64,000 nt of DNA. Source: Octopus vulgaris (Eukaryota). This document shows positions 31,154 through 58,097 of this stretch, piece after piece. The first letter of the stretch is position 1. Each line of letters opens with the position of its first letter. The translations under genes were made by a program, and so were the position numbers. The notes below the pieces were generated by a model. That model was not told where the DNA came from. It did no database searches and saw nothing but the letters and a program-made list of their open reading frames with translations. The stretch is taken from assembly GCA_951406725.2 (NCBI GenBank), contig OX597817.1, positions 115,568,001-115,632,000 on the forward strand. Reading direction: 5' to 3'.

Positions 31154-31204
<51 letters not shown>

Positions 31205-31207
<3 letters not shown>

Positions 31208-31650
31208 TAAAGAGAATGCGATAAAAATCCAAGGCTGTGAAACATTTCATAACATTTATAAATATAATGTCTTACAGCTGTTTCCGGGATATTTTATATC
31301 TCTGCATATCTCACGTCTATTCCTCCACTTCACTCTCTATTTCATATCTTATCTAGAATAACTACCGTTTAACCATTTCTCACACCGTCTCCGATGAAGG
31401 GATATATGAAATATCCCGGAAACAGCTGTAAGACATTCTATTTATAAATGTTCTGAAATCTTTCACGGCCTTGGATTTTTATCTCATTCTGTAATTTTTT
31501 TCATATATACACATGCTCATATATGAACTACGTTGGAATCCTCATTCACATAATCACTGAACCTGGAGCTTAACTATAGTCTGTCCATAGCACTTCCTCA
31601 GCGTTACCTGACAATTTGGGTCTTATTGACACCATTACCTCTAATAACTA
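31205..31650 (+). mobile_element. Non-coding PLE/retrozyme-like unit, family H1 (inverted arm + HHR + conserved tail), in (TA)n
   Basis: About 31211-31294 is the reverse complement of about 31409-31490; contains an HHR; tail is homologous to 51955-52095. Confidence 0.8.
31387..31434 (+). ncRNA. Minimal type-I hammerhead ribozyme (U4C variant)
   Basis: Stem I GTCT/AGAC; core CCGATGA; stem II GGGATAT/ATATCCC; GAAAC-AGCT-GTA with palindromic stem III. Confidence 0.75.
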
Positions 31651-39273: not shown

Positions 39274-39353
39274 TGATCGCGATGGGATTTGAACCCACGC
39301 CTCCGAAGACTGGTGCCTAAAACCAGCGCCTTAGACCACTCGGCCACACACAC
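39274..39353 (-). pseudogene. tRNA-Leu(TAG) pseudogene; 5' acceptor strand replaced by (GT)n
   Basis: TGGCCGAGTGGTCTAAGGCG, anticodon arm CTGGT-TTTAGGC-ACCAG, long variable arm, GTGGG-TTCAAAT-CCCAT, 3' CGCGATCA; the 5' seven bases GTGTGTG pair poorly. Confidence 0.85.
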
Positions 39354-47136: not shown

Positions 47137-47319
47137 ACATGGATTCTACTGAGACCAGTAAGAAACGATTATGAACTTTTCTATTGCACTTTTTATAATA
47201 TTTTTGATAAGGTTCGTTTTTTCAAGAACATGGATTCTATTGAGACCAGTAAGAAACGATTATGAACTTTTCTATTGCACTTTTTATAATATTTTTGATA
47301 AGGTTCGTTTTTCAAGAAC
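47137..47319 (+). repeat. Tandem duplication, 91-bp unit x2
   Basis: ACATGGATTCTA.TGAGACCAGTAAGAAACGATT...TTCAAGA repeats at 47137 and 47228. Confidence 0.95.
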
Positions 47320-51700: not shown

Positions 51701-51735
<35 letters not shown>

Positions 51736-52178
51736 TGACAAAATGAGATAAAAAAATCCAAGGCTGTAACTAGTTTTCAGAACATTTATAAAGAAAAAGT
51801 CTTACAGATGTTTCCGGGATATTCTATATATCCGTCTCTGATGAAGGGCTATACAAAATGACTCGGAAACAGCTGTAAGACCTATTCGTTATAAATGTTC
51901 TGAAAACTGCTTACAGCCTTGGATTTTTTTTTATCTCGTTTCTGTCAATTTGTATATATGCATGCTAGTACATGACCGACGTTGGACTTTTCACTCGCAT
52001 TATTATCGAACCTGGAGCTTAACCACGGTCTATCCATAGCTCTTACTTAGCTTACCCGACAGCTTTTGGGTCTTCTTTGACACCAATGCCTCTCATATAT
52101 ATATGAAATTTTGAGTTTAGTTCATGGACCCCAGTACGAGTTTTGAAAACCACCAGGAACCCAGGTTGGGAACCATTG
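51604..52178. mobile_element. hAT-type MITE, interrupted by an H1 ribozyme unit
   Basis: TIRs CAGTGGTTCCCA / TGGGAACCATTG; 8-bp TSD CATTAGAC / TATTAGAC. Confidence 0.8.
51732..52100 (+). mobile_element. Family H1 unit copy 2 with hammerhead at 51834-51881
   Basis: GTCT-CTGATGA-stem II-GAAAC-AGCT-GTA-AGAC; upstream 51732-51816 is the inverted copy of 51864-51952; tail matches 31505-31643; flanked by TA runs. Confidence 0.82.
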
Positions 52179-57764: not shown

Positions 57765-57975
57765 TTGGCGGTGTAAGGATGTAAGGATATAACATTTACA
57801 TTAGTAGAGAACTGCGCATATTCTTACGACAGGGTTCGAAGTTATAGTTCATCACCATTCTATATTGGGAATCTGTAGTTTCGCTCCAGTGAAGCTGGTT
57901 TATATGCAGAGTGAAATATAAGACAAGGTATAAGACAATAGTCATTACATATGTTTCCTTTATTTGAGTAAATTT

Positions 57976-58097
57976 AGCTTACAGCTGTTTCCAGTAGTCA
58001 TTATAGGTACATCACTGATAGGTTTCCTCAACTGGCCTATTGGTAAATTGATAAACATTGAACGACCTAAAAAGTTAATGCTAATATCGTCAGAGCC
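57976..58097 (-). ncRNA. Type-I hammerhead with about 95-nt structured stem II
   Basis: Minus strand: GGCT-CTGACGA-TATTAGCATTA...TAGGT...ATAGG..CCTAT...ACCTA-TAATGACTACTG-GAAAC-AGCT-GTA-AGCT. Confidence 0.65.

What the first reader, a model, noticed from the sequence alone, without database searches (positions are those of the whole stretch)
31205..31650. Family H1: fixed 370-450 bp unit whose own 5' arm is antisense to half of its ribozyme
Seen: two copies 20 kb apart (31205-31650 and 51732-52100) share one architecture: TA run, inverted arm ending GTCTTACAG.TGTTTCCGGGATATT, HHR, sense arm, then a tail of about 140 nt ending at the same point (GACACCA.T.CCTCT) before TA. In both, the inverted arm stops inside stem II, so it complements GAAAC-AGCT-GTA but not CUGAUGA. 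Inference: the recurring breakpoint reflects the integration mechanism or an amplified unit, and the transcript could alternate between an active HHR and a hairpin that sequesters it.
Basis: partly seen in the sequence, partly recalled or inferred. Interest (0 to 1): 0.75.

Follow-up and report, generated by a model that had tools for sequence, protein, structure and literature searches.

The report
Two-armed Hydra-Penelope retrotransposon stubs
These two hairpin-shaped, hammerhead-bearing repeats are cut-short copies of a common Penelope-type jumping gene in a known layout, not a fixed unit and likely not an RNA switch; the one notable regularity is that the two arms almost always end at two different fixed points, likely because both cut DNA strands start copying the same RNA.

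Summary
The two copies are real, but the 'fixed unit' is not. They are 5'-truncated, head-to-head insertions of the 3' end of an abundant Hydra-clade Penelope-like element (RT plus C-terminal GIY-YIG; 14 of 20 endonuclease loci carry this hammerhead repeat downstream). Inner breakpoints scatter over 500 nt: only 3 of 53 tail-less arms stop in stem II, and 42 of 53 cover the CUGAUGA box. The arm is predicted to lock the ribozyme off by 29-49 kcal/mol, so switching is unlikely, and the arms have drifted to about 90% identity. What is fixed are the two outer ends, +80 and about +220-225 from the cut site. In 53 of 54 classifiable inverted insertions one arm uses each end (0 long/long, 1 short/short). 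The tail-less arm often reaches further 5' than the tailed arm, which excludes simple fold-back. This suggests twin priming from two reverse-transcription start sites. The inverted repeat and one-sided tail are in print. The roughly 145-nt tail, lying in the 5' UTR, is longer than the 30-40 nt described. The scan found the same layout in this genome and the same two-end rule on other DNA before.

The parts
31170..31209 (.). (TA)n target microsatellite left of copy A
   Evidence: (TA)4 or more lies within 45 nt of 74 of 94 short ends and 49 of 62 long ends, against 8% background
31210..31307 (-). Copy A inverted arm: element 3' part from the short end (+80) back to stem II; no tail
   Evidence: profile hit -33..+81; 101 of 112 aligned letters identical to the sense arm
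31296..31307 (.). Junction of A: 12-nt stretch that fits both the arm and the start of the sense part
31296..31648 (+). Copy A sense arm: element 3' part from about -134 to the long end
   Evidence: (profile hit -146..+226)
31387..31434 (+). Copy A type I minimal hammerhead-like motif: stem I GUCU/AGAC, core CCGAUGA, 7-bp stem II, palindromic stem III, predicted cut after 31430
   Evidence: activity untested
31505..31648 (+). Copy A tail (+80 to about +220): 5' UTR sequence of the full-length element
   Evidence: searches show this sequence running on into the ORF start in other copies
51704..51732 (.). (TA)n target left of copy B
51732..51833 (-). Copy B inverted arm, short end to one base before the 5' end of stem II; no tail
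   Evidence: 94 of 107 aligned letters identical to the sense arm
51832..52095 (+). Copy B sense arm from -46 to the long end
   Evidence: profile hit -46..+218
51834..51881 (+). Copy B hammerhead-like motif, core CUGAUGA, stem II decayed, predicted cut after 51877
51955..52095 (+). Copy B tail

Best explanation
Both repeats are 5'-truncated, head-to-head insertions of the hammerhead-bearing end of a Hydra-clade Penelope-like retrotransposon in TA microsatellites, likely made when both cut strands of the target each primed reverse transcription at a different fixed site of the element's RNA. Shown: family identity, link to the RT-endonuclease ORF, TA targets, two fixed outer ends (+80 and about +220-225 from the predicted cut), scattered inner junctions, and one short plus one long end in 53 of 54 inverted insertions. 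Inferred: the endonuclease nicks both strands of (TA)n; one 3' end primes at the short site and the other at the long site, most simply on one RNA molecule, which has one of each; both cDNAs stop early and are joined head to head. The arm's complementarity to the ribozyme is then a by-product of duplication; in a read-through transcript it is predicted to bury the ribozyme for good. Identity as a Penelope-like stub about 0.97; twin priming about 0.6.
For: Link to ORF: 14 of 20 endonuclease loci have the repeat in sense 1.1-2.8 kb downstream. Inverted arms abut truncated RT sequence (L206, L210, L214). The tail runs on into the ORF start, ATG about +265. Homologues carry RVT_1/HTH_animal. Ends: 69 inverted pairs among 167 family loci from two motif samples; of 54 with both ends classifiable, 53 long/short, 1 short/short, 0 long/long (binomial p 3e-15 against 0.5). 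The tail-less arm reaches more than 20 nt further 5' in 20 of 53, the tailed arm in 13, so neither arm is always a copy of the other. Inner ends are coupled (Spearman 0.39, p 0.004; 20 of 53 within 20 nt, reached by none of 50,000 permutations). Arms share rare variants (mean 1.31 vs 0.27 for non-partners; 20 of 55 pairs with two or more vs 4.4%). In vitro, a Penelope RT cuts and extends both strands and starts at two internal sites that bound the tail (PMC11167929).
Against: All inferred from old, decayed copies (median arm identity 89.7%); no intact element and no biochemistry here. 15 of 69 pairs have one eroded or intermediate end and were left out. One pair (L158) was counted long although its tail lies about 470 nt away; otherwise the count is 52/2/0. 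The partner arm was the single best match for both arms in only 1 of 55 pairs and fell below the median for one arm in 16 of 55, so one donor is shown on average, not per insertion. Junction microhomology is not enriched: 9 of 47 with 3 nt or more vs 47 of 252 in chimeric controls, and gaps or filler are common. Direct tandems with an upstream short and a downstream long end (L137, L142) and composites that jump into the ORF start (23 of 40) need extra template jumps. PMC11167929 saw no difference in start site between strands and does not propose this pairing in the parts read.
Confidence: 0.62

Rival explanations
1. The same element, but the palindrome is made first as a self-primed (fold-back) DNA intermediate, and the endonuclease then cuts one arm at the short site and the other at the long site before integration.
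For: 20 of 53 pairs have near-symmetric inner ends and some fold exactly at stem II or another local palindrome (L123, L194, L143). Both ends are AT-rich. Self-priming and endonuclease resolution are the published suggestions (PMC3846280 passages; PMC8557442 passages).
Against: A fold-back of a target-primed long cDNA cannot give a tail-less arm that reaches further 5' than the tailed arm (20 of 53), and a short cDNA has no tail to copy. Only an extrachromosomal version survives, and it does not explain why each site is cut exactly once. The ends match RT start sites in vitro in PMC11167929.
Confidence: 0.22
2. Twin priming on two separate RNA molecules held by an asymmetric RT dimer, one subunit fixed to each start site.
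For: Explains the strict pairing and either arm being longer; a dimer is predicted for the anole protein (PMC11167929). Avoids strand displacement on one RNA. In 16 of 55 pairs the partner ranks below the median for one arm.
Against: Coupled inner ends and shared rare variants fit one template more simply, although two transcripts of one locus would also share variants.
Confidence: 0.12
3. One reading: a fixed 370-450 bp unit amplified as such, whose arm toggles the ribozyme between active and sequestered folds.
For: Both window copies have their junction at stem II, and the arm is complementary to the GAAAC-stem III-cleavage region.
Against: Junctions scattered; 3 of 53 tail-less arms stop in stem II. 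Hairpin favoured by 29-49 kcal/mol. A and B arms 88.5% and 85.4% identical, no better than the family median of 89.7%. B's stem II is decayed. A and B differ by 83 nt at the junction.
Confidence: 0.03

Closest known systems
Hydra clade of C-terminal EN+ Penelope-like elements (Craig et al. 2021, PMC8557442; section 11 read whole, other passages, supplement rows)
   Same: RWK and DKT motifs, CxCX5C linker, CxxC and CxH beside the conserved E and N, no CCHH, hammerhead in the 3' repeat, (TA)n targets. RT motifs resemble Hydra-1_Amil and Hydra-1_Obim in the supplement by eye.
   Different: A different family from Hydra-1_Obim (other hammerhead; two probe motifs absent from the supplement text). 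Tail about 145 nt rather than 30-40 nt. Long Asn-rich linker between RT and EN.
Inverted 5'-truncated pLTR with one-sided tail of EN+ PLEs (PMC8557442 Fig. 2 legend; PMC3846280 passages on Adineta Pen2a)
   Same: Inverted truncated copy at the 5' end, tail on one end only, palindromes at some junctions.
   Different: Here counted: one tailed and one tail-less end in 53 of 54, on either arm; those papers call the tail optional or often one-sided.
Poseidon_Ac (PAc) of the green anole (Frangieh et al. 2024, PMC11167929; parts 1-2 of 4 read)
   Same: Two internal ends downstream of the hammerhead bound the tail; AT-rich targets; no sign that ribozyme cleavage sets the 5' ends (1 of 96 within 3 nt of the cut).
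   Different: In PAc the sites lie in the ORF and the tail is 30-40 nt; here both ends lie upstream of the ATG, about 145 nt apart. Different clade.
[quoted passage not shown]
   Same: Long stem II, 4-bp stem I, palindromic stem III suited to a dimer. That paper already reports pairs 100-700 bp apart on opposite strands.
   Different: Extra unpaired base on both sides of stem II and U4 to C in two thirds of arms; activity untested.
Animal non-LTR retrozymes (10.64898/2026.07.22.740005, part 1 of 5 read; PMC7229834, search listing only)
   Same: Type I hammerhead, origin from PLE pLTRs; one head-to-tail ~620-nt unit of this family exists (L240).
   Different: The window copies are not tandem monomers of fixed length.

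Membership tests
EN+ Penelope-like element | RT and GIY-YIG endonuclease linked to the repeat | tested here: met
   14 of 20 EN loci with the repeat downstream; RT, EN and repeat in one locus in L205, L206, L210, L213, L215; GIY-YIG E 0.0027, below the Pfam cut-off; homologues with RVT_1/HTH_animal. All copies seen are broken.
EN+ Penelope-like element | 5' truncation, inverted truncated copy, one-sided tail | tested here: met
   69 inverted pairs in 167 loci; ends tabulated
EN+ Penelope-like element | Hammerhead motif in the pLTR | tested here: met
   Motif conserved over 201 arms; dimer fold through stem III predicted at -34.1 kcal/mol for A
Hydra clade | RWK motif and DKT in place of DKG | tested here: met
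   RMRWK and SDKT in L215 and L220 translations; definition
Hydra clade | CxCX5C linker, CxxC and CxH near E and N, no CCHH | tested here: met
   Translations
Hydra clade | Insertion into (TA)n | tested here: met
   74 of 94 short ends and 49 of 62 long ends against 911 of 10887 background windows; the short end itself contains TATA, so that count is partly built in
Hydra clade | Placement in the Hydra branch of an RT tree | not tested
   Reference sequences could only be read as text in the supplement
Neptune clade (first guess, recalled) | CX2-5CxxC linker and CCHH motif | tested here: not met
   Linker is CxCX5C and CCHH is absent; Neptune rows of the supplement differ
Non-LTR retrozyme | Tandem monomers of fixed length, each with a hammerhead | tested here: not met
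   Window copies are inverted and of unequal length; lengths scattered genome-wide
Active hammerhead ribozyme | Self-cleavage after GUA | not testable with these tools
   Monomer fold is not the predicted minimum even without the arm

The most novel reading that the evidence does not exclude
Every two-armed Penelope insertion is written from a single RNA by two RT active sites that start at two fixed positions, one from each cut target strand. In this Hydra family both starts lie in the 5' UTR, possibly inside an intron that begins at the ribozyme's own cleavage triplet and ends just before the ATG. Only unspliced, uncleaved RNA could then be copied, which would explain the one-sided tail, the inverted arm and intron retention together. 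The pairing rule is measured; the intron part rests on splice-like motifs only and found no support.
Probability: 0.4. Interest if true: 0.62.

Novelty: new member of a known kind. Interest (0 to 1): 0.3.

Why it matters
As a locus it is ordinary: two dead stubs of a family with some thousands of copies. The family-wide count matters more. How Penelope-like elements make their inverted ends and tails is called unresolved in the papers read. A strict one-short-one-long rule, with either arm able to reach further, narrows the models to priming from both target strands at two sites. The 145-nt spacing makes this family an easy one in which to tell the two starts apart in vitro. It also warns against reading ribozyme-antisense arms in animal genomes as switches.

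Tried and rejected
Rfam scan: no hammerhead at gathering score. Neptune label (recalled): rejected on motifs. Stem II hotspot: not found (5 of 96). Cut-site hotspot: not found in the general sample (1 of 96 within 3 nt). Six of 26 copies that run into the ORF begin at -9..+5, but at least three extend 5-8 nt upstream of the cut, so cleaved RNA does not explain them (tallied by hand). Junction microhomology: not above chimeric controls. A third fixed end in the ORF start: an artefact of query divergence. Intron from the cleavage triplet to just before the ATG: no such joint in contigs of four runs guessed to be RNA (cover of the ORF start was thin), and no spliced genomic copy; open. Expression: no RNA holder listed. 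Family sequence lies on contigs of runs guessed to be RNA, but most of A's unique right flank had no cover in them; no evidence either way. Pfam did not recognise the RT fragments. Not-in-print searches for the pairing rule or twin priming in PLEs; none of the listed papers read states it; subscription journals are largely outside the library, and bioRxiv supplements were not seen.

Full report
Observation. The window lies in a 2.8-Gb animal genome (G000:C4:115568001-115632000); earlier scan notes call it an octopus, which I did not check. The two copies are there as described: TA run, inverted arm, hammerhead-like motif, sense arm and tail. The motif is a type I minimal hammerhead with stem I GUCU/AGAC, a 7-bp stem II and a palindromic stem III; the predicted cuts are after 31430 and 51877. 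A's core is CCGAUGA and B's stem II has decayed. The arms are 101 of 112 (A) and 94 of 107 (B) letters identical to their sense partners. They cover nearly all of stem II. B stops one base short of its 5' end. A ends within a 12-nt stretch that also matches the start of its sense part, which carries 83 nt more upstream element sequence than B. No other copy of the family was found in the window.

Family. Searches of the genome gave more than 3300 first-look candidates and 449 exact matches of a 24-nt core motif. Of 80 independently sampled arms covering that region, 14 match exactly, which suggests roughly 2,600 or more such arms (rough and biased low). The sense part extends upstream for very different lengths. 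In L052 it leads to a broken GIY-YIG endonuclease frame. Of 20 endonuclease loci (ranks 2-20 plus one chosen for its long frame), 14 have the hammerhead repeat in sense 1.1-2.8 kb downstream. Further upstream lies a reverse transcriptase, whose homologues carry RVT_1 or HTH_animal domains. My first, recalled label was Neptune. The motifs are in fact those that Craig et al. give for the Hydra clade: RWK, DKT, CxCX5C linker, CxxC and CxH, no CCHH, (TA)n targets (against 21, 28, 42). No tree was built. In near-full-length copies the tail continues past its usual end into the ORF start, with the ATG at about +265. The tail is therefore 5' UTR sequence, and both fixed ends lie upstream of the ORF.

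Breakpoints. Coordinates are relative to the predicted cut and come from a profile of 11 natural copies. Sample 1 is 90 loci covering 92 of the first 100 listed matches of the 24-mer; one duplicate and three low-scoring loci were dropped, leaving 86. Sample 2 is 96 loci covering the first 100 of 313 matches of a 26-mer at +45..+70; 15 overlap sample 1. The inner junctions are scattered. The 96 sample-2 anchors begin from +25 to beyond -477, with 5 in stem II and 1 within 3 nt of the cut. Of 53 tail-less arms, 3 stop in stem II, 7 stop 3' of it and 42 cover the CUGAUGA box. Microhomology at junctions was not above control.

What is fixed. Arms end at +80 (an internal TATA stretch) or at about +220-225, mostly against TA repeats. 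Among 167 family loci, 69 are inverted pairs. In 54 both ends can be classed: 53 long/short, 1 short/short, 0 long/long; 15 have one eroded end. One pair was counted long although its tail is displaced by about 470 nt; otherwise the count is 52/2/0. A and B are further long/short cases. Either arm can be the tailed one. The tail-less arm reaches further 5' by more than 20 nt in 20 pairs and the tailed arm in 13; 20 are within 20 nt, more than in any of 50,000 permutations. Partner arms share rare variants about five times as often as non-partners, but the partner is seldom the best match of all, because the copies are old.

Mechanism. A cDNA primed at the short site has no tail to copy, and a cDNA primed at the long site cannot fold back into an arm that reaches further 5' than itself. 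So both arms were likely templated from RNA. One RNA has exactly one short and one long site, which gives the strict pairing without further assumptions and explains the coupled stops (inference). This agrees with the anole Poseidon protein, which cuts and extends both strands, starts at two internal sites that bound the tail, does not need ribozyme cleavage and is predicted to be a dimer (PMC11167929). Against it: no biochemistry for this family, extra template jumps needed for tandems (L137, L142) and for 23 of 40 ORF-start copies that are joined to a downstream arm, none of them long-ended, and the published self-priming and endonuclease-resolution ideas, which survive in an extrachromosomal form.

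Switch. With the arm, the cleavage region pairs with probability near 1. The hammerhead fold lies 48.6 (A) and 29.1 (B) kcal/mol above the hairpin, and 25 and 23 kcal/mol above it even if the transcript stops 4 nt past the cut. Without the arm the monomer fold is still not the minimum. A dimer through stem III is predicted for A, as for other minimal PLE hammerheads, which cleave weakly in vitro (PMC4209133). Arm identity in A and B is no better than the family median. Transcription of these copies could not be settled.

Comparison and novelty. The inverted truncated copy, the one-sided tail, TA targeting and opposite-strand hammerhead pairs are all in print (PMC8557442, PMC3846280, PMC4209133). 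This is a new family of the Hydra clade with an unusually long tail. The counted pairing rule was not found in the papers read (searches). Earlier notes of this scan report the same layout many times in this genome and the same rule in other genomes. My reading was written down before those look-ups; the notes are not independent proof. Interest 0.3.

Noticed in passing
L282:1255-1660; L277, L263, L271 (about +220 to +267 from the cut): Just past the long end, copies carry a branch-point-like motif and a conserved CAG/GTAA 14 nt before the ATG, while the ribozyme's cleavage triplet reads like a splice donor. An intron there would contain both fixed ends. No spliced joint or spliced copy found.
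   Followed up: partly
L240:1081-2027 (G000:C5:29333956-29337187): Head-to-tail repeat of a ~620-nt unit (-190 through ribozyme and tail to the ORF start), like a retrozyme derived from this element.
   Followed up: no
L229, L238, L243, L246, L250, L252, L277, L282 and others: 23 of 40 copies holding the ORF start break off 100-250 nt into the ORF and are joined to a downstream arm that is short-ended or eroded, never long-ended; may mark the 3' reach of the template RNA.
   Followed up: partly
L104:4967-6007, L205, L218: Long asparagine-rich, in-frame linker between RT and endonuclease, as described for Adineta Penelope elements.
   Followed up: no
window 57950-58010, minus strand: A GAAAC-stem III-GUA stretch without a recognisable first core box; perhaps a decayed hammerhead of another family.
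   Followed up: no
window 39274-39353, minus strand: tRNA match, 44.9 bits, with a TAG anticodon by eye, between TA repeats.
   Followed up: no
L002 inverted arm: Another short repeat has inserted into the palindromic stem III of the inverted arm, with the palindrome repeated on both sides.
   Followed up: no
window 47137-47319: Near-perfect 91-nt direct duplication.
   Followed up: no
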